Below are positions 21,152 to 27,416 of a stretch of DNA of 64,000 nucleotides, in pieces. The stretch spans positions 288,001 to 352,000 of IMG/VR virus record IMGVR_UViG_3300028591_000070; one strand, 5' to 3'. The stretch is from a virus. Taxonomy: Duplodnaviria; Caudoviricetes. Both the position numbers and the translations under genes were made by a program. Numbering within the stretch: the stretch's first letter is position 1; every line of letters begins with the position of its first letter. Below the pieces are notes generated by a model that was not told the origin of the DNA, did no database searches, and saw nothing but the letters and a program-made list of their open reading frames with translations.

Positions 21152-22033
21152 TTACTCCTCATCGTCGTCAGCTTCTGCTTCAGCTTTTTCTTCTTCAGTT
21201 GCATCTTCTGCACCTGAGAAATCAAGCTCTGAGAACATACTTGCAAATGGATTTTCACCATCTTCACCACCGAAAATAGCAGCGAATGGATTTGCATCTG
21301 TCTTTCCACCAAACATTCCACCCATCATCTGCATCATAACCATCTGACCAAACATGTTTCCACCACCAAATGGACTGCAAGCATCTGCGACGTTTCCGCC
21401 ATTCATCATACCATTCATCATCTGGCTCATGAGCTGCATTTTAAACATCTGGCCAAACATGTTACCATTAGATGCCATACCTTTAAAGGGACACCAGATT
21501 TTAGCATAGAAGAATACTTTTCCCATAAGGATGTGACGTTCTGGAAGAACCTGCTTAAGTTCGTTGTCTTCATAGTCAAGAGCTGTAATAACTCCGTTAT
21601 CAACCTTGATTACAAAGCGTGGTACGCGGCGGTCACCTTTCTGCATAAGAATAATATCACCAACCTGAAGTGTATTTGTTGGAATAAGCCAGAACATGTT
21701 GAACATGTCAAAAGCGAAAGAACCAACATTTGTCAAGCGGTTTTTTTTAGCATCATAAGTTTTGTAACCACTTGGTGTCTTAATTGCAATTTTACCATTC
21801 ATACCGAGCTTGCACTTTCCTGCCTCGATAGGACCAAACATTCCCTTAAACATCTTACCCATGTCACCCATACCAAAATCGTTCATATCTTTATTCTCCT
21901 TGGGATTTTCTTCCCCATTATTATATTCAATTGAGTAGGAAGGTCTGCTGTACCTAGGTATCATAATCATTCCTTCCTCGCCATAATTCATTCTACTAAA
22001 ATCTGCAAACCTTGTCCAATTTGCTACACTCAT
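21152..22033 (-). CDS. hypothetical protein with Met/Gly-rich and acidic tail
   Basis: 293-aa ORF in NAD/vWA operon; low-complexity MMNGMMNGG region. Confidence 0.7.
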   Translation of the reverse strand: MSVANWTRFADFSRMNYGEEGMIMIPRYSRPSYSIEYNNGEENPKENKDMNDFGMGDMGKMFKGMFGPIEAGKCKLGMNGKIAIKTPSGYKTYDAKKNRLTNVGSFAFDMFNMFWLIPTNTLQVGDIILMQKGDRRVPRFVIKVDNGVITALDYEDNELKQVLPERHILMGKVFFYAKIWCPFKGMASNGNMFGQMFKMQLMSQMMNGMMNGGNVADACSPFGGGNMFGQMVMMQMMGGMFGGKTDANPFAAIFGGEDGENPFASMFSELDFSGAEDATEEEKAEAEADDDEE

Positions 22034-22512
22034 AGTAATTTGGCCTTTTTCTTAAGATAAGCTCTTACTAGCATAAGAGTAAATCCAAGAAGGTTTTGTC
22101 CTTGCCACTTTGAAATATCCTGAACCCTTGGGTCATCTTCAGCCATATGAATAGCCCAAATGTTATCAGTAGGATTACATTCAACAAGAATATCATCACC
22201 TGTGTCAAGAAGTTGCTTTGCCAAATCTGGATTTTGTTCAAACTTAGCTTTAAGACCTTCATACACTACAATTTGACGAACACCATTCCAAACAGTGTCG
22301 TTATAATTGCGCACTTTTCTACCAAGACCTTTAATTTCGCTTGGAGAGGTTGAAGCCAGAATTTTCTGAGCAATTTCATCATCTCCAAAAGTCTTAGCTT
22401 TCTGATACATCATCCACTGTTCACTGTTGATAAACTTTACTCCATCAACAGTAAATTCGCTTTTGTACCAGTTACTTAAGAAACCTTTCAAAAAAGGATG
22501 GATTTTAGCCAT
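22030..22512 (-). CDS. NADAR family (YbiA-like) protein
   Basis: FLSNWY, SEQWMMYQKA, KGLGRKV, KAKFEQN, W.GQNLLG..LM.VR. Confidence 0.92.
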   Translation of the reverse strand: MAKIHPFLKGFLSNWYKSEFTVDGVKFINSEQWMMYQKAKTFGDDEIAQKILASTSPSEIKGLGRKVRNYNDTVWNGVRQIVVYEGLKAKFEQNPDLAKQLLDTGDDILVECNPTDNIWAIHMAEDDPRVQDISKWQGQNLLGFTLMLVRAYLKKKAKLL

Positions 22513-22515
22513 ATA

Positions 22516-23325
22516 TTACAACTCCTTGAAATAATCTACCATTCCTGAGTCAGGATGTGGCATCTGAATAATTTCAATCTTAAACTTCATCTTGTTATAG
22601 AGTTTAACAATTCGATTAATTTCATCTACTGTAAAATCAACTTCATCCATTTCTCTACGAATAAAATGGTCCAATCTTTCATATGTGAAGTTTGGAATAT
22701 CCAACTGCTTAGAAAGATTCTGCTCATCTGTTGAGCCACACATTCCATCATCTGGAGCTTTCATAACCAAATCTTCTGGAGCACCCAAAGCCAAACCAAT
22801 CTGTCTTACTTCTGAAACAGTGTAGTCACAAATTGGACCATAACTTCCGGCGCTATCTCCATAGAATGTTGAATATCCAAGGACATCTTCGCTGCGGTTG
22901 CAAGTGTTCAAAACACGACCACCAAGAATTGCTGCAACTCCATAAAGAGTTGTCATTCGCAATCTCGCAGGAGTATTTGTAGAATACTGGCTTGGAATTT
23001 CATTGTTAAGAACTCCATTTGATACATCATCCATAAGGTTGACACAAATGGCTCCTGTAAGAGCTCTATAAGCATCACCAATATTTACAGTCAAATTCTT
23101 AATTCCAAGTAATTCACAAACTCTCTTTGAGTCGGCTATGTCCTTCTGTTCGCCATTAGGCATCATAACTCCAACAACATTTTCCTTACCATAAGCTTTT
23201 ACAGCAAGGTAAGCTACGACTGTTGAGTCTTTTCCACCTGAAATACCAATTACGGCCTTTCCAGATGGATTAGATGCTCTCAAGCCATTTACAATATTTT
23301 CAATAGCAAGATTAGCATCAAACAT
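22516..23325 (-). CDS. nadE: NH3-dependent NAD+ synthetase
   Basis: GISGGKDS, ARLRMTTLY, TCNRSE..GYSTFYGD, KAPDDG. Confidence 0.92.
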   Translation of the reverse strand: MFDANLAIENIVNGLRASNPSGKAVIGISGGKDSTVVAYLAVKAYGKENVVGVMMPNGEQKDIADSKRVCELLGIKNLTVNIGDAYRALTGAICVNLMDDVSNGVLNNEIPSQYSTNTPARLRMTTLYGVAAILGGRVLNTCNRSEDVLGYSTFYGDSAGSYGPICDYTVSEVRQIGLALGAPEDLVMKAPDDGMCGSTDEQNLSKQLDIPNFTYERLDHFIRREMDEVDFTVDEINRIVKLYNKMKFKIEIIQMPHPDSGMVDYFKEL

Positions 23326-23327
23326 AA

Positions 23328-24800
23328 CTACTCAATCTCCTTAGCAAGGCGGGCACGAATATCCATCAAATTCTGGCGGTTGAAATAAACACCATTTACG
23401 AAAACAACCTGCATTTCATCTTTGTGAGCTGCAGCAAGTTTATCATATTCATGTTCAGTCAAACCATCTGTTGCAACATAGTCATTTCCAACTTTTTCAA
23501 CAAAAACCAAACCTTTGTGAGATTTCTTAAGTTTTGCTGTATCAGTTTTTGGATCTTTTACAACTTCAAGTTCGCGGCCGTCCATAAGCTGAATATATGT
23601 AGTTTTCTGTGCAAAACCGAAAGTATCACGAGTTGATACAATCATCTTGTCACCTTCAAAGAAAGCATGGAAACAGAAAGCACCTACACCAAAGAGACAG
23701 TTTGTTGCGGCAAACTTCATTTCTTCAAGCTTTTTCCAGATTTTTTCAACCTGTTTAAGAGTACATCCATCACCGAGGATCATTCCAACATGTGGATTTA
23801 ATACCTTGTAACCCTTCTTGTTTTCAGTACCACCAAATGTTTCCCAAAGAGACTGAACTGTCTGGATAACATTTTCATACTGGTCACCAGAGTCTGGACG
23901 AATAAGGATTTTACCTTCGTGAGCAAGAATTTCTTCTTTAATTTCAGGAAGAACATTCTTTACAATGTCCCAATAATCATAAGTATCGGCAACATAGCTG
24001 AAGTTTTTGTACTGCTTAAGAAGCTTGAGAATAAGCTCTTTTTCAGAAGTGCCAACAGCAACATTTGAACTTACTACAGAGTGTTCAATTGAAACTGCAC
24101 CAATTCCAAGGTGATTGTAAGAACAATCAGCATTGTAGAAATAATCAAGCCAAGAAATAGCAGGAACTGTTGAAGTCTTATTGAATGAAATCAACCAAGA
24201 AGCAGAAGTTTTACAAGCTTCTTCCATACAAGACATTCCGCGCATTCCAAAGTCTGAAGCAGCCATACGAGGGTCAGCACCATCTGTTGTTTTGTCATAC
24301 CACTTCTTTGCGATTTTGTAGTACATATAACCAGCAGTTGCGTCATTACAAGGCTTCCAAACTTCACCCTGCAACCAGCATTCTGTCCACTGAGCCAACC
24401 AAGCAAAATCAGGGTCTGTATTTTCTACAGAAGCGATAGGAACTCCCATATTTACAAGAGAACCTTCTGGAAGAGCTTTAATCTTAAGTGGAAGATAACC
24501 GAGACGATGCAGCTTTTCAATGTGGCTTGTTTCATAGTTTCCTGGGCCAAGCTGAAGATTCATCTTCTTTTCATAATCTGCGATTACTTCAGAAGTAGGC
24601 TTAGCAAACCAAGCATCTGCATTTTCTTTGAAATTTTTAATAAAGGCTTGAATACCGAAAACAACAACTTTCTGCTGTTTTTCGAACATAGATTTGCGGG
24701 GAACAAGATAACTAACGAGTTTAGTCATCCCTTTTGGATAAACGTCAACATGACAGTTTTTGTAGGTGTCAGCTACATCAGGCATCATAAAATGAAACAT
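23328..24800 (-). CDS. nicotinamide/nicotinate phosphoribosyltransferase family (NAMPT/Namat-like)
   Basis: DTYK..H, DFGMRG, EHSV, DTYDYW, IRPDSGD, GVGA, KDPKTD, KKSHKG. Confidence 0.9.
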   Translation of the reverse strand: MFHFMMPDVADTYKNCHVDVYPKGMTKLVSYLVPRKSMFEKQQKVVVFGIQAFIKNFKENADAWFAKPTSEVIADYEKKMNLQLGPGNYETSHIEKLHRLGYLPLKIKALPEGSLVNMGVPIASVENTDPDFAWLAQWTECWLQGEVWKPCNDATAGYMYYKIAKKWYDKTTDGADPRMAASDFGMRGMSCMEEACKTSASWLISFNKTSTVPAISWLDYFYNADCSYNHLGIGAVSIEHSVVSSNVAVGTSEKELILKLLKQYKNFSYVADTYDYWDIVKNVLPEIKEEILAHEGKILIRPDSGDQYENVIQTVQSLWETFGGTENKKGYKVLNPHVGMILGDGCTLKQVEKIWKKLEEMKFAATNCLFGVGAFCFHAFFEGDKMIVSTRDTFGFAQKTTYIQLMDGRELEVVKDPKTDTAKLKKSHKGLVFVEKVGNDYVATDGLTEHEYDKLAAAHKDEMQVVFVNGVYFNRQNLMDIRARLAKEIE

Positions 24801-24809
24801 AATTTTTTA

Positions 24810-24902
24810 TCTCCTATATAAGTCGAATATGTTTTTTGATAGTCACTAAGAACTGTGCCACCTAATTATGGTTATTCTTAGCAACATCTAAATTATATTA
24901 AC
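24810..24902 (-). promoter_or_regulatory. GTTAATAT promoter plus structured 5' leader, copy A
   Basis: stem gttgctaagaa/ttcttagtgac enclosing TAACCATAA..GTGG, then TCGACTTATATAGGAGA; similar to 26555-26657. Confidence 0.6.
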
Positions 24903-25683
24903 AGACTTCTACGAAGTCGTTAGTACCACGGTAAATTGAATTTGTAGTAAATACTTTTGTAATTCCAGCTTCTTTAAGAGCATCAATATCAATTACATTT
25001 TCGCAGTGTGAAATGTAGAGATATACATCTTTTGCTCCAAGCTTTTTAAGCTCAATAGCTGAATATTTGAAAGTACCACCTTTTGAACAAATATCATCAA
25101 TGATGAGAATGTTCTTATCTTTGATAGCTTCTGGATTTCCCTTAATTTCAAGACCAAGGATTTTTCCGCTGCGCCAATCACGAGTTTTTTCACCAACTAC
25201 GATTTCATAATTTTCTTTAACTATATCCAAAGTAGAATAGCGTTTACAAGCACCAGCATCTGGGAACATAATTGTCTCAACATCAAGTGGAAGTTCTTTC
25301 AAGAAGTTTTCAATTGTCTGAAGTCCATTGTCCTGAATATTATCGATAAGAGCGCGAGAAACATCTGAGTGTGCATTATCAACAATAACAGCCTTAAAAT
25401 CCATTGCATTTAAAACTTTTGCAAAAGACTTAAGAGTAAATACTTCATCTGGATTTTTAACACGATCCATTCGTGCATTTGGAATATAAGGCATCTCCAA
25501 GAAAAGATTGCAGCCTTTATAAAAATCAGCAATACATTGAAGAGTGAAAAGTTCACTCATAGAGTCAAACAACCAAGTTACAGTTATCTGCTGATTATTT
25601 TTAATCTTAGGGTCAAGTCGAAAAAGTGGAGTTCCATCAGGAAAGTTTTCAACTTTAATTTTAATGTCATTTACTTTAATCAA
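24898..25683 (-). CDS. ribose-phosphate pyrophosphokinase-like (Prs/Adps-like)
   Basis: FPDG, MPYIPNARMDR, HSDV, FPDAGA, IIDDICSKGGTF. Confidence 0.9.
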   Translation of the reverse strand: MIKVNDIKIKVENFPDGTPLFRLDPKIKNNQQITVTWLFDSMSELFTLQCIADFYKGCNLFLEMPYIPNARMDRVKNPDEVFTLKSFAKVLNAMDFKAVIVDNAHSDVSRALIDNIQDNGLQTIENFLKELPLDVETIMFPDAGACKRYSTLDIVKENYEIVVGEKTRDWRSGKILGLEIKGNPEAIKDKNILIIDDICSKGGTFKYSAIELKKLGAKDVYLYISHCENVIDIDALKEAGITKVFTTNSIYRGTNDFVEVC

Positions 25684-25996
25684 AGGTTTTTCCTCATATC
25701 CGCCGGCAAAAGCCGGCTGGAATATTAGCGACGCTTACGAGGAGTTCTTCCCCACATCTGCATCTGTTTTACAAAAAAATCATACAACTCGTTAAAGTCG
25801 TGATTACCTTCACTGGCAACAAGAGCGATATACTCTCGTGCGTCCGCTACATCTTCAGAGCACTTAGCTCGGCCGATGTAGTTTTTGATAATTCTTTTAG
25901 GATTATCAATAGCATCCTTCTTTGTGAAGGAGTCTACACCAAGGTTCTTTTTATCCAAGACCTTTCCTCCATAAATAGATTATACCAAGAGTTGGA

Positions 25997-26545
25997 TTAT
26001 TTTACAAAAATTTGTTGTGATTTAAGTACATTCATTGCAGATTTTTGACCTTCTTCAGAGAGGTCAGCACAACAAGAGCTATCAACTATTATTGGCATTT
26101 CTGGAAAAAATGACTTAAGTAAAGTGGCGTTACTACAAACACAGATTGATGAAACTGTTCCAATAATTTCAATCTCTTCAGGGAAGTCACCAGGCTGATT
26201 ATTTTCATCATTGAAAAGTTCGTTAAATTTAGCTTTCCAGTCTTTATAGCCAAATGTAGGCTTGTCAACAATAAATGCATTTTTTGCAAATTCCTGAAGT
26301 TCTGGAACGATTTCCCAACCTTTTGTACCTTCAATGCAGTGTTCAACTGGAAGATTTTTTCCTTCCTGTGTTTCAAGATAATTTTTTTGATGTGTATCGC
26401 GAGTAAAAATAAGATATGTGTAGTCTTTAGCTTTAAGCTTTTCTACAATATTTGGAATGATTTTTTCTGCGGCAGGATTTGCCAAAGAACCAGTTACGAA
26501 GTCGTTTTGCATATCAACGACAATAAGAAGTTTGTTTTTCTTCAT
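25997..26545 (-). CDS. pncA: nicotinamidase (isochorismatase family)
   Basis: VVDMQNDF, TRDTH, HC..GT.GW, KPTFG, SSICV. Confidence 0.88.
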   Translation of the reverse strand: MKKNKLLIVVDMQNDFVTGSLANPAAEKIIPNIVEKLKAKDYTYLIFTRDTHQKNYLETQEGKNLPVEHCIEGTKGWEIVPELQEFAKNAFIVDKPTFGYKDWKAKFNELFNDENNQPGDFPEEIEIIGTVSSICVCSNATLLKSFFPEMPIIVDSSCCADLSEEGQKSAMNVLKSQQIFVK

Positions 26546-26554
26546 GTTTTCTTT

Positions 26555-26657
26555 TCTCCTATATAAATCGAAAATAGTTTAGTTTACTAAGAGAAGATCC
26601 GACCAACTTTTCTTATGGCTAATCTTCTCATTCAACTAGGTATATAATTATATTAAC
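26555..26657 (-). promoter_or_regulatory. GTTAATAT promoter plus structured 5' leader, copy B
   Basis: stem gagaagat/atcttctc enclosing TAGCCATAA..GTTGG, then TCGATTTATATAGGAGA. Confidence 0.6.
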
Positions 26658-26693
26658 ATATATCCCTATAAAGAATATACATTAATATTTAAA

Positions 26694-27416
26694 TTAGTTC
26701 ATTTGAAAATACTCATTAGCTTTCATACCAGGCCAATAAGCTCTTTCATCTTCTCTATCACTATTTTTAAGTTTTTCAAAATGTTCGTCCATTTTAGTAA
26801 AGACATTCTGAAGAATTTCTAATTTGTTAAACTTTGTAAGAGCATTAATAAATGTTTTATAGTATTCTTCATAGATGCGTTCATGCTGACCTTCACCATA
26901 ATCAAGGTCGATATAAGTATCTTTGAATAAATGATTTTCTACGACATAATGATATGTAGCTGCAACAAGATTTTTAATATCAATCCATTCATTTCTAGAT
27001 GAACCTACGAAAAGTTGATAAACTTCAGACTCTGGAGGATTTTCGAATTCTGAATATATTTCACTTATTTCAGCGTCTTCATCGTCAATGCTGTCATAAT
27101 ATAAATGACCTTCATAATCTGGAGCACCAACATATTTATGAGTACCTTTATGACCTATCCATTTAAGGCCAAAAGTATCAGTAAACTCATACTCATGTAA
27201 TCCAAACTGTTCAGCATCTCTTTCTAGAGAATAAAAATCTGGTGGATTAAGGTCATTGTTTTTATAAATACTATCAGACCTACGAGCTCTAGTGGCCATA
27301 TAAATTTTGTTCCATTCTGTTTGCTCTTCTACAGAACCAGTATATGGTCGCCATTCCCATTTTTCTGGAAAATACTTTACATAATTGTTATAATATCTTC
27401 TAACTTCTCTGCTCAT
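26694..27416 (-). CDS. hypothetical protein
   Basis: 240-aa ORF, TAATG-coupled to upstream gene. Confidence 0.7.
   Translation of the reverse strand: MSREVRRYYNNYVKYFPEKWEWRPYTGSVEEQTEWNKIYMATRARRSDSIYKNNDLNPPDFYSLERDAEQFGLHEYEFTDTFGLKWIGHKGTHKYVGAPDYEGHLYYDSIDDEDAEISEIYSEFENPPESEVYQLFVGSSRNEWIDIKNLVAATYHYVVENHLFKDTYIDLDYGEGQHERIYEEYYKTFINALTKFNKLEILQNVFTKMDEHFEKLKNSDREDERAYWPGMKANEYFQMN

What the first reader, a model, noticed from the sequence alone, without database searches (positions are those of the whole stretch)
24810..26657. Two-copy structured RNA leader ahead of NAD salvage genes: riboswitch candidate
Seen (minus strand): both the NAMPT-like gene and pncA have GTTAATATAAT, then a long stem of different sequence (gttgctaagaa/ttcttagtgac versus gagaagat/atcttctc) enclosing conserved UA[AG]CCAUAA...G(U)UGG. 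Both continue UUAGU..ACUA and then UCGA[CU]UUAUAUAGGAGA, which contains the SD. CCA/UGG can form an inner helix, and the loop AUAA is complementary to the UUAU just before the SD (possible pseudoknot). Inference: a cis-regulatory RNA controlling translation, sensing NAD+, NMN, ADP-ribose or PRPP, or a protein-binding site. From memory it does not resemble the NAD+-I (nadA) or NAD+-II (pnuC) motifs. Copy B also contains TAGT-N7-ACTA (NrtR-box-like), which copy A lacks.
Basis: partly seen in the sequence, partly recalled or inferred. Interest (0 to 1): 0.8.

Follow-up and report, generated by a model that had tools for sequence, protein, structure and literature searches.

The report
Twin structured leaders on phage NAD genes
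A 386-kb gut or rumen phage, and about six related phages, put the same kind of folded RNA leader in front of two genes that rebuild the cofactor NAD; it is a real, previously uncatalogued regulatory RNA, but the evidence favours a site bound by a protein or similar factor over a classic metabolite-sensing riboswitch.

Summary
On the minus strand, the pncA-like gene and the NAMPT-like gene each follow TGTTAATATAAT, a hairpin, and a near-identical ribosome-binding box (UUCGAYUUAUAUAGGAGA).

TGTTAATAT reads as an extended -10 promoter that this phage uses elsewhere with very short leaders. The 85-95 nt NAD leaders are therefore exceptional.

I found homologous leaders in six related phage lineages, always before these two genes and with two copies in this genome. 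The hairpin covaries: 90.6% of cells pair, 10 of 13 pairs change on both sides, and a conserved U.G pair marks the structure as sense-strand RNA. Flanking four-fold sites are 45-82% identical, yet the box and the pncA-type apex are almost invariant. Spacing between hairpin and box is fixed at 35-37 nt.

The pncA-type leader also has an outer helix P0 and a GAA/AGUA internal loop.

No Rfam family matches. No terminator or SD-sequestering helix is conserved. The proposed AUAA:UUAU pseudoknot and the NrtR-like box are not supported. The apex differs between the two leaders and is replaced in some phages.

My reading is a new, clade-restricted cis-regulatory leader RNA. A translational operator for a trans-acting factor is most likely (~0.4), a riboswitch is possible (~0.2), and a constitutive stability or translation element is also possible (~0.25).

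The parts
26647..26658 (-). Promoter of leader B: TGTTAATATAAT, read as TG-n-TAATAT (extended -10). The predicted transcript start is about 7 nt downstream.
   Evidence: The GTTAATATA core occurs 24 times in the genome, often before genes and tRNA-region transcripts with short leaders. Promoter function is inferred, not shown.
26634..26638 (-). Leader B, P0 5' arm (UAGUU).
   Evidence: It pairs with AACUA at 26580-26584. All 5 sequences pair at all 5 positions, and 2 of the 5 pairs change on both sides (U-A/C-G and C-G/U-A).
26630..26633 (-). Leader B, 5' strand of the internal loop (GAAU). Opposite it lies UUAGUA (26585-26590). This is a GAA/AGUA pattern like a sarcin-ricin/loop-E module.
   Evidence: GAA and AGUA are present in all 7 pncA-type leaders. 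The motif assignment rests on sequence pattern and my own knowledge; it was not tested.
26591..26629 (-). Leader B core hairpin. P1 is GAGAAGAUU/GAUCUUCUC with a closing U.G pair. J is A. P2 is GCCA/UGGU. The loop is UAAGAAAAGU. The 3' J is CG.
   Evidence: MFE fold, covariation. The apex is 18-21 of 21 identical in five relatives.
26580..26590 (-). Leader B: the 3' strand of the internal loop (UUAGUA) and the P0 3' arm (AACUA).
26555..26572 (-). Leader B ribosome-binding box UUCGAUUUAUAUAGGAGA, which contains the SD. The pncA-like ATG is at 26543-26545.
   Evidence: It is 17-19 of 19 identical in relatives and unpaired in the consensus fold.
24892..24903 (-). Promoter of leader A: TGTTAATATAAT. 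It overlaps the TAA stop codon of the Prs/Adps-like gene.
24842..24885 (-). Leader A hairpin. P1 is GUUGCUAAGAAU/GUUCUUAGUGAC with a closing U.G pair. J is AA. P2 is CCAU/GUGG. The loop is AAUUAG. The 3' J is CACA. It lies at or within a few nt of the predicted 5' end of the transcript.
   Evidence: MFE fold. P2 changes to CUAC/GUAG and CUAU/GUAG in L038 and L039, and the P1 arms change with compensation.
24828..24834 (-). Leader A box AAACAUA, complementary to UAUGUUU (start codon plus the next three bases, 24795-24801). This gives a possible start-codon-masking helix, P3.
   Evidence: The box and the complementarity are present in all 8 NAMPT-type leaders. With 30 nt of coding sequence included, the start codon has an unpaired probability of 0.05 or less in 6 of 8 folds. 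The duplex is weak (-4.9 to -6.8 kcal/mol) and not individually better than shuffles. Treat P3 as tentative.
24810..24827 (-). Leader A ribosome-binding box UUCGACUUAUAUAGGAGA. The ATG of the NAMPT-like gene is at 24798-24800.
25997..26545 (-). pncA-like nicotinamidase gene (isochorismatase fold), the first gene downstream of leader B.
   Evidence: Pfam PF00857, E=2.8e-23.
23328..24800 (-). NAMPT/Namat-like gene, the first gene downstream of leader A. NadE and NADAR genes follow it.
   Evidence: Pfam PF04095 and PF18127; PHROG 448.

Best explanation
The two leaders are homologous, clade-specific cis-regulatory 5'-UTR RNAs. Each is transcribed from the phage's ordinary extended -10 promoter.

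Each consists of a sense-strand hairpin: P1 with a conserved GAWU.GWUC top and a U.G wobble, an A-rich internal loop, and P2 with an apical loop. A near-invariant ribosome-binding box follows at a fixed distance. The pncA-type leader adds an outer helix P0 and a GAA/AGUA internal loop.

The most likely mechanism is a bipartite translational operator. A trans-acting factor, most plausibly a protein of phage or host origin, recognises the hairpin and the box together. It would set translation (and perhaps mRNA life) of the pncA-Adps-like unit and the Namat-like-NadE-NADAR unit in parallel.

Shown here: homology, covariation, strand specificity, purifying selection, fixed spacing, and exclusive association with these two genes.

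Inferred: promoter use, action at translation, and the existence and nature of the trans factor.
For: (1) Conservation. Homologous leaders occur in the window and in L032/33, L034, L038, L039, L040 and L041, always before pncA-like or NAMPT-like genes. This genome has exactly two copies.

(2) Structure. 90.6% of cells pair, against 73% in shuffles and 28-55% in slid controls. Ten of 13 pairs change on both sides, and the covariation score is 0.559 against 0.234 (0 of 500 shuffles reach it). RNAalifold gives the same hairpin, and every sequence folds to it on its own. P0 is fully paired, with two compensatory pairs.

(3) Strand. The conserved U.G pair (UG in 13 of 15 sequences) and further G.U pairs would be C-A mismatches on the other strand or in a DNA cruciform.

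(4) Selection. Four-fold sites of the flanking genes are only 0.45-0.82 identical to the window. The box is 16-19 of 19 identical, and the pncA-type apex 18-21 of 21 in five relatives.

(5) Spacing. Hairpin to box is 35-37 nt in every leader that matched the pattern (11 of 15), although P1 varies from 7 to 14 bp and the linker sequence diverges.

(6) Context. Other genes behind the same promoter type have leaders of about 20-30 nt.

(7) Shape. A rod-like hairpin with sequence-specific loops, a distinct apex for each gene and lineage-specific apex swaps fits a co-evolving macromolecular partner better than one small-molecule pocket.
Against: No trans factor is identified.
- The phage has no CsrA or L25 homologue. 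The RegA search found nothing, but its control found nothing either, so it is uninformative.
- The conserved 77-aa protein encoded between pncA and the Adps-like gene has no informative fold match and is absent from that position in L032/L033, which keep both leaders.

The hairpin base lies about 40 nt upstream of the start codon, which is far for simple steric occlusion. The data set is small (14 distinct sequences from about 7 phages), and the main alignment was fitted to the model.
Confidence: 0.4

Rival explanations
1. It is a metabolite riboswitch, or two related ones. The hairpin would bind an NAD-pathway molecule (NAD+, nicotinamide, nicotinic acid, ADP-ribose, ADPR-PP, NMN/NaMN or PRPP) and change translation initiation of both units.
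For: - The same structured motif sits upstream of two different genes of one pathway, the classic riboswitch signature.
- The stems covary while unpaired nucleotides are conserved.
- Both first genes encode enzymes whose families act on nicotinamide, a product of NAD+-depleting defence systems (10.1101/2024.02.11.579819). That link is my inference.
- From my own knowledge, rod-like hairpin aptamers exist, for example the NAD+-I domain.
Against: - No terminator follows the hairpin.
- No conserved helix sequesters the SD, which is unpaired in the consensus fold.
- Apex-to-box complementarity is no better than shuffled.
- The apical loop differs between the two leaders. It is replaced by unrelated hairpins (GUUAC-GACAAACG-GUAAC, GUAAA-GACAGACG-UUUAC, GAUUAA-..-UUAAUC) in L040-A, L041-B and L035-A.
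- The internal loop is only loosely conserved (A or AA opposite CG, CA, CACA or AA).
- The motif is known only from one phage clade. Pattern scans of the viral, metagenome and bacterial-genome collections found nothing else.
Confidence: 0.2
2. It is a constitutive expression cassette. A 5'-proximal hairpin would protect the mRNA from 5'-end-dependent decay (or act as a processing site in read-through transcripts), and an optimised AU-rich SD box would give high, early translation of counter-defence genes. No sensing would be involved.
For: - The hairpin of leader A starts within a few nt of the predicted transcript start.
- The SD is open in the consensus fold.
- The box looks like a strong AU-rich RBS.
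- Covariation only demands that a helix forms.
Against: - Near-invariance of the 16-nt pncA-type apical sequence while P1 changes is not needed for a stabiliser.
- Leader B has a predicted 5' tail of about 10-14 nt, which is drawn into P0.
- The fixed 35-37 nt spacing and conservation of UUCRAY upstream of the SD go beyond what an RBS needs.
- Only 2 sites in a 386-kb genome use this cassette.
Confidence: 0.25
3. It is a DNA-level operator for an NAD-responsive transcription factor (of the NrtR, NiaR or NadR type) bound between the promoter and the gene.
For: Conserved blocks lie just downstream of a promoter. Copy B contains TAGT-N7-ACTA.
Against: - Helix arms change sequence while keeping complementarity, including G.U pairs that make sense only in sense-strand RNA.
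- The palindrome is not conserved.
- The phage encodes no 3H (NiaR) domain. Its only Nudix match lies in a 174-aa open frame, which by my own knowledge is short for an NrtR.
- Host regulators could not be examined.
Confidence: 0.05
4. It is a leader-peptide (uORF) element. Short ORFs span both hairpins in this genome: 13 codons in A and 14 in B, both ending UCU UAG.
For: Read directly. AUG UUG CUA ... UCU UAG runs across hairpin A, and AUG AGA AGA ... UCU UAG across hairpin B.
Against: - There is no SD before these AUGs.
- The AUG is absent from all other NAMPT-type leaders.
- In pncA-type leaders the frame shifts in L038, the ORF is 2 codons in L040, and it is absent in L041.
Confidence: 0.02

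Closest known systems
NAD+-I (nadA motif) and NAD+-II (pnuC motif) riboswitches
   Same: A structured RNA in the 5' UTR of NAD biosynthesis or salvage genes. The hairpin-with-internal-loop architecture resembles an NAD+-I domain (my own knowledge).
   Different: There is no match to any Rfam model, even at E<=10, on the window leaders or on five related loci. No terminator or SD-sequestering platform is present. The motif is restricted to one jumbo-phage clade, and the apex is not conserved between copies.
Phage translational operators: the T4 gene 43 operator hairpin, T4 RegA sites, and the MS2/Qbeta coat-protein operator (my own knowledge)
   Same: A phage mRNA leader with a hairpin whose loop sequence is conserved, combined with a conserved single-stranded ribosome-binding region. 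Several genes could be controlled in parallel.
   Different: The hairpin lies about 40 nt upstream of the AUG rather than abutting or containing the RBS. No repressor is identified. The RegA family search found nothing, but its control was also silent.
5'-terminal stabiliser hairpins of bacterial and phage mRNAs, such as the ompA 5' UTR (my own knowledge)
   Same: A stable hairpin at or near the predicted 5' end of a long leader, followed by an open RBS.
   Different: Sequence-specific conservation of the loops and fixed spacing to the RBS box. Leader B has a 5' tail that pairs to form P0.
Sarcin-ricin / loop-E (bulged-G) internal-loop module, as in protein-binding rRNA sites and some leaders (my own knowledge)
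   Same: Leader B has GAA opposite AGUA between P0 and P1 in all 7 pncA-type sequences, in the orientation expected for the module.
   Different: This is a sequence pattern only. The non-canonical pairs cannot be tested here, and the NAMPT-type leader lacks it.

Membership tests
NAD+-I riboswitch (nadA motif, Rfam) | Match to the family covariance model | tested here: not met
   cmscan found no hit at the gathering score over the window. It found none at E<=10 over 24700-26800 or over five related loci.
NAD+-II riboswitch (pnuC motif, Rfam) | Match to the family covariance model, and a pseudoknot that includes the SD | tested here: not met
   No cmscan hit. No conserved loop-to-RBS pairing.
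Riboswitch (generic) | Conserved aptamer fold with covarying stems and conserved unpaired nucleotides | tested here: met
   However, the apex differs between the two leaders and is replaced in three homologues.
Riboswitch (generic) | Recurrent association with genes of one pathway | tested here: met
   Found only before pncA-like and NAMPT-like genes in about 7 phages. The breadth is narrow.
Riboswitch (generic) | Expression platform: an intrinsic terminator, or an alternative helix covering the SD or AUG | tested here: inconclusive
   No terminator. The SD is unpaired in the consensus fold. The only candidate is a weak AAACAUA:UAUGUUU helix in NAMPT-type leaders, and pncA-type leaders have no counterpart.
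Riboswitch (generic) | Direct, selective ligand binding | not testable with these tools
   This needs in-line probing, ITC or SHAPE.
Protein-bound translational operator | Structured, sequence-specific RNA site linked to the RBS of the regulated gene | tested here: met
   Hairpin plus box at a fixed 35-37 nt spacing, both under purifying selection.
Protein-bound translational operator | An identified RNA-binding regulator | tested here: inconclusive
   No CsrA or L25 in the phage. The RegA search was uninformative. The 77-aa neighbour has no assignable fold.
NrtR/NiaR-type DNA operator | A conserved DNA palindrome together with a cognate regulator | tested here: not met
   The palindrome is not conserved, and the region is the arm of a covarying RNA helix. 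There is no 3H domain, and the only Nudix match lies in a 174-aa open frame.

The most novel reading that the evidence does not exclude
The leaders could be small riboswitch-like sensors that read a product of defence-triggered NAD+ cleavage (nicotinamide or ADP-ribose) or NAD+ itself. The phage would then switch on its NAD+-reconstitution genes only when the host's NAD+-depleting immunity fires. That would be a new ligand class, and I know of no other riboswitch wired to a phage counter-defence pathway.
Probability: 0.15. Interest if true: 0.9.

Novelty: new member of a known kind. Interest (0 to 1): 0.55.

Why it matters
Phage NAD+-reconstitution pathways are a recently recognised answer to NAD+-depleting bacterial immunity (10.1101/2024.02.11.579819). 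The papers I checked on these pathways describe no RNA-level control of them.

This is a conserved, covarying leader RNA dedicated to exactly these genes in a clade of jumbo phages. It suggests that expression of the pathway is regulated after transcription. It also gives a compact object of about 45-60 nt, plus an 18-nt box, that can be tested directly for ligand or protein binding. Finally, it adds a phage-specific motif that current RNA family libraries lack.

Tried and rejected
**Known RNA families.** I ran Rfam at gathering score and at E<=10 on the window and five related loci. Nothing hit the leaders.

**Searches for more members**
- Viral contigs gave only chance hits (and 55/56).
- Metagenome contigs gave only near-identical copies of this phage, plus chance hits such as L077.
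- Genome contigs gave chance hits only.
- The search for related loci with the NAMPT-like protein in viral contigs found nothing.
- Relatives cannot be drawn for a virus record.

**More distant NAMPT homologues** (64% identity or less: L042, L043, L044; also L037 and L091) have compact operons with no model hit. L042 and L043 have AAGUA and UUAUA..GGAG-like remnants before pncA that I could not resolve.

**Structural ideas that failed**
- Pseudoknot or alternative pairing between the apex and the RBS box: not conserved, and no better than shuffled.
- The 7-bp AAGUUGG:UCRAYUU pairing seen in pncA-type leaders is weak (-3.6 kcal/mol) and absent from NAMPT-type leaders.
- Leader peptide: not conserved.

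**Candidate regulators**
- The 77-aa neighbour as regulator: helical, pLDDT 77, no Pfam, PHROG or PDB fold match.
- Phage-encoded RegA, CsrA, L25 and NiaR: none found. The one Nudix match lies in a 174-aa open frame.

**Alignment caveat.** MAFFT alignments of both types together put the 3' arms out of register. I therefore used the model-based alignment A6 and the five-sequence alignment A8 for the pair counts.
Full report
**Where the window lies.** The window is bases 288001-352000 of a 385,934-bp virus record with 31.7% G+C, that is, a jumbo phage. The minus strand carries an NAD cluster:
- a pncA-like isochorismatase-fold gene (25997-26545)
- a conserved 77-aa ORF (25725-25958)
- a Prs/Adps-like phosphoribosyltransferase-fold gene (24898-25683)
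- a NAMPT/Namat-like gene (23328-24800)
- NadE (22516-23325)
- a NADAR-domain gene (22030-22512)

The cluster resembles the published phage NAD+-reconstitution pathway NARP1 with added pncA and NadE. That reading belongs to another note on this genome, and I checked only the domain calls.

**Checking the observation.** TGTTAATATAAT lies at 24892-24903 and 26647-26658. Each is followed by a hairpin whose stem sequences differ but whose interior is alike, then by UUCGAYUUAUAUAGGAGA ending 9-12 nt before the ATG. In the whole genome, TTATATAGGAG occurs only at these two places. The 12-mer occurs five times, all on the minus strand. Both hairpins are the minimum-free-energy fold, with z-scores of -3.6 and -2.7.

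**The promoter part.** TGTTAATAT reads as TG-n-TAATAT, an extended -10 element. The GTTAATATA core occurs 24 times in the genome. That count is not above composition expectation, but many copies sit just upstream of genes or tRNA-region transcripts. In those cases the SD and ATG follow within about 20-30 nt (window 36963 and 54731; genome 202026). The motif is therefore the phage's ordinary promoter rather than part of the RNA element.

What is unusual is that only the two NAD units carry leaders of about 85-95 nt. In relative L040, both leaders share a different promoter version (TAATCTATATATTAT). That fits a genome-wide promoter consensus which differs between phages.

**Relatives.** The NAMPT-like protein has a graded series of homologues. 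I fetched contigs for 12 of them.

NAMPT-type leaders (A) occur in L032/L033, L034, L038, L039, L040 and L041. L035 carries a diverged one. pncA-type leaders (B) occur in L032/L033, L034, L038, L040 and L041.

A covariance model built only from the seven B leaders recovers all B leaders (76-108 bits) and eight A leaders (23-50 bits, E from 3e-7 to 0.08). In the full genome it finds exactly these two sites, and the next best hit is E~0.9. Phages whose NAMPT-like protein is 64% identical or less have compact operons without a recognisable leader. So do L037 and L091, although their proteins are 74-77% identical.

Pattern scans of IMG/VR, the JGI metagenomes and 185,579 representative prokaryote genomes returned only near-identical copies of this phage, or chance hits. 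As far as these searches reach, the motif is confined to one clade of uncultured jumbo phages.

**Structure.** Counts on the model-based alignment of 15 leaders (14 distinct) are shown below.

| Measure | Observed | Controls |
|---|---|---|
| Cells forming a standard pair | 90.6% | 73% shuffled; 28-55% slid |
| Pairs with changes on both sides | 10 of 13 | mean 6.8; 6 of 500 shuffles reach it |
| Covariation score | 0.559 | 0.234 shuffled (0 of 500 reach it) |

RNAalifold predicts the same hairpin without guidance, and each sequence folds to it on its own.

P2 changes from CCAU/GUGG to CUAC/GUAG and CUAU/GUAG. The outer P1 is rebuilt with different sequences, for example GAGAAGAU/AUCUUCUC, GGAUGGAU/AUCCAUUC and GGGUUAAGAU/AUCUUGGUCC.

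The top of P1 (GAWU.GWUC) ends in a U.G pair that is kept in 13 of 15 sequences. This and the other G.U pairs mean the structure exists in the sense-strand RNA, not in duplex DNA or in an antisense transcript.

Its 5' tail pairs with the linker to form P0: UAGUU/AACUA, UAGCU/AGCUA, CAGCU/AGUUG or CAGUU/AACUG. All positions pair in five sequences, and two pairs are compensatory. L041 can form UAUUA/UAAUA, which I read directly from the sequence. Between P0 and P1 lies GAA opposite AGUA in all seven sequences. From my own knowledge this is the sequence pattern of a sarcin-ricin/loop-E module.

An RNA helix explains it better than an NrtR site.

**Selection.**

| Region compared with the window | Identity |
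|---|---|
| Four-fold degenerate sites, pncA | 0.45-0.82 |
| Four-fold degenerate sites, NAMPT-like gene | 0.46-0.60 |
| Ribosome-binding box | 16-19 of 19 |
| pncA-type apex, five relatives | 18-21 of 21 |
| Outer P1 | 0-6 of 6, mostly 2-4 |
| Linker | 7-16 of 18 |

The distance from the 3' end of P2 to UUAUAUAGGAG is 35-37 nt in every leader that matched the pattern (11 of 15). This holds although P1 varies from 7 to 14 bp and the spacer between promoter and hairpin varies freely.

**What does not fit a classical riboswitch.**
- No terminator follows the hairpin.
- The SD box is unpaired in the consensus fold.
- A column-wise search found no conserved helix between the box and anything upstream.
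- Apex-to-box duplexes are no better than for shuffled apexes.
- The proposed AUAA:UUAU pseudoknot is four A-U pairs and is missing in L038-A, L040-A and L041-B.
- The apical module differs between the two leaders. It is AAUUAG-type in A and UAAGAAAAGU in B. Unrelated hairpins replace it in L040-A and L041-B, both with a GACARACG loop, and in L035-A.
- The internal loop is only loosely conserved.

NAMPT-type leaders do carry a conserved AAACAUA box complementary to UAUGUUU at the start codon. With 30 nt of coding sequence included, the AUG is predicted paired in 6 of 8 leaders. The duplex is weak and not individually better than shuffles, and pncA-type leaders have no counterpart. I list it as tentative.

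**Other readings considered.**
- Short ORFs span both hairpins in this genome, but they are not conserved in relatives.
- A DNA operator is contradicted by compensatory and G.U changes. The phage has no NiaR 3H domain, and its only Nudix match lies in a 174-aa open frame.
- No CsrA or L25 gene is present. The RegA search was uninformative.
- The 77-aa protein encoded between pncA and the Adps-like gene co-occurs with the leaders in five phages but is absent there in L032/L033. It is helical with a basic tail and has no informative fold match.

**Verdict.** The element is real. It is a conserved, covarying, sense-strand leader RNA dedicated to two NAD-reconstitution transcription units, and it is absent from Rfam.

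The pattern is a rod-like hairpin with sequence-specific loops, a separate invariant box at fixed spacing, gene-specific and lineage-specific apexes, and a narrow distribution. I take this to favour a bipartite operator read by a trans-acting macromolecule (about 0.4). The alternatives are a small-molecule riboswitch (about 0.2) and a constitutive stability or translation cassette (about 0.25). Only binding and reporter experiments can decide among them.

The papers I searched on phage NAD+ reconstitution mention no RNA-level control.

Noticed in passing
window 25700-25731 (minus strand); also L034:4075-4105: A G+C-rich hairpin (CCGGCUUUUGCCGG) with no U-tract sits between the 77-aa ORF and the Prs/Adps-like gene. 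It is conserved in L034 (GCCGGCUUUUGCCGGC). It could be an internal processing, stability or attenuation signal within the pncA unit.
   Followed up: no
window 25725-25958 (minus strand): A conserved 77-aa helical protein with a basic C-terminal tail (RTPRKRR). It is 62-84% identical in L034, L038, L040 and L041, and always lies just after pncA. It is absent from that position in L032/L033. It has no Pfam, PHROG or PDB fold match.
   Followed up: partly
L032:3990-5004 and L033, same coordinates: In this relative a DUF7487 gene is inserted between leader A and the NAMPT-like gene. The leader now precedes a remnant ATGTTTCATTTC (MFHF..., the NAMPT start) that soon meets a stop. The NAMPT-like gene starts again overlapping the end of DUF7487. 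This looks like a mobile-gene insertion with target duplication.
   Followed up: no
genome G000:C1:170860-170967 (minus strand; L093), outside the window: The fifth exact TGTTAATATAAT is followed by a long-stem structured RNA (AUUGUGUCUU...AAGACACAAU) and then by tRNA genes (tRNA-Ser and an odd tRNA-like call). No Rfam family passes threshold for the first RNA.
   Followed up: partly
L040:1215-1240 and L040:4880-4910: Both leaders of this relative share a different promoter-like box (TAATCTATATATTAT) in place of TGTTAATATA. This suggests the promoter consensus has shifted genome-wide in that phage, or that the two leaders evolve in concert.
   Followed up: no
window 24842-24888 and 26588-26632 (minus strand): Short ORFs of 13 and 14 codons, both ending UCU UAG, run exactly across the two hairpins in this genome. 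They are not conserved in relatives and have no SD.
   Followed up: yes
L042:3440-3607 and L043:3490-3618: More distant phages (NAMPT-like protein 58-64% identical) have long, structured regions upstream of pncA with AAGUA and UUAUA(A/U)AGGAG-like remnants. L043 also has CCAU...GUGG flanking an inserted hairpin. These may be remote homologues of leader B that the covariance model does not reach.
   Followed up: partly
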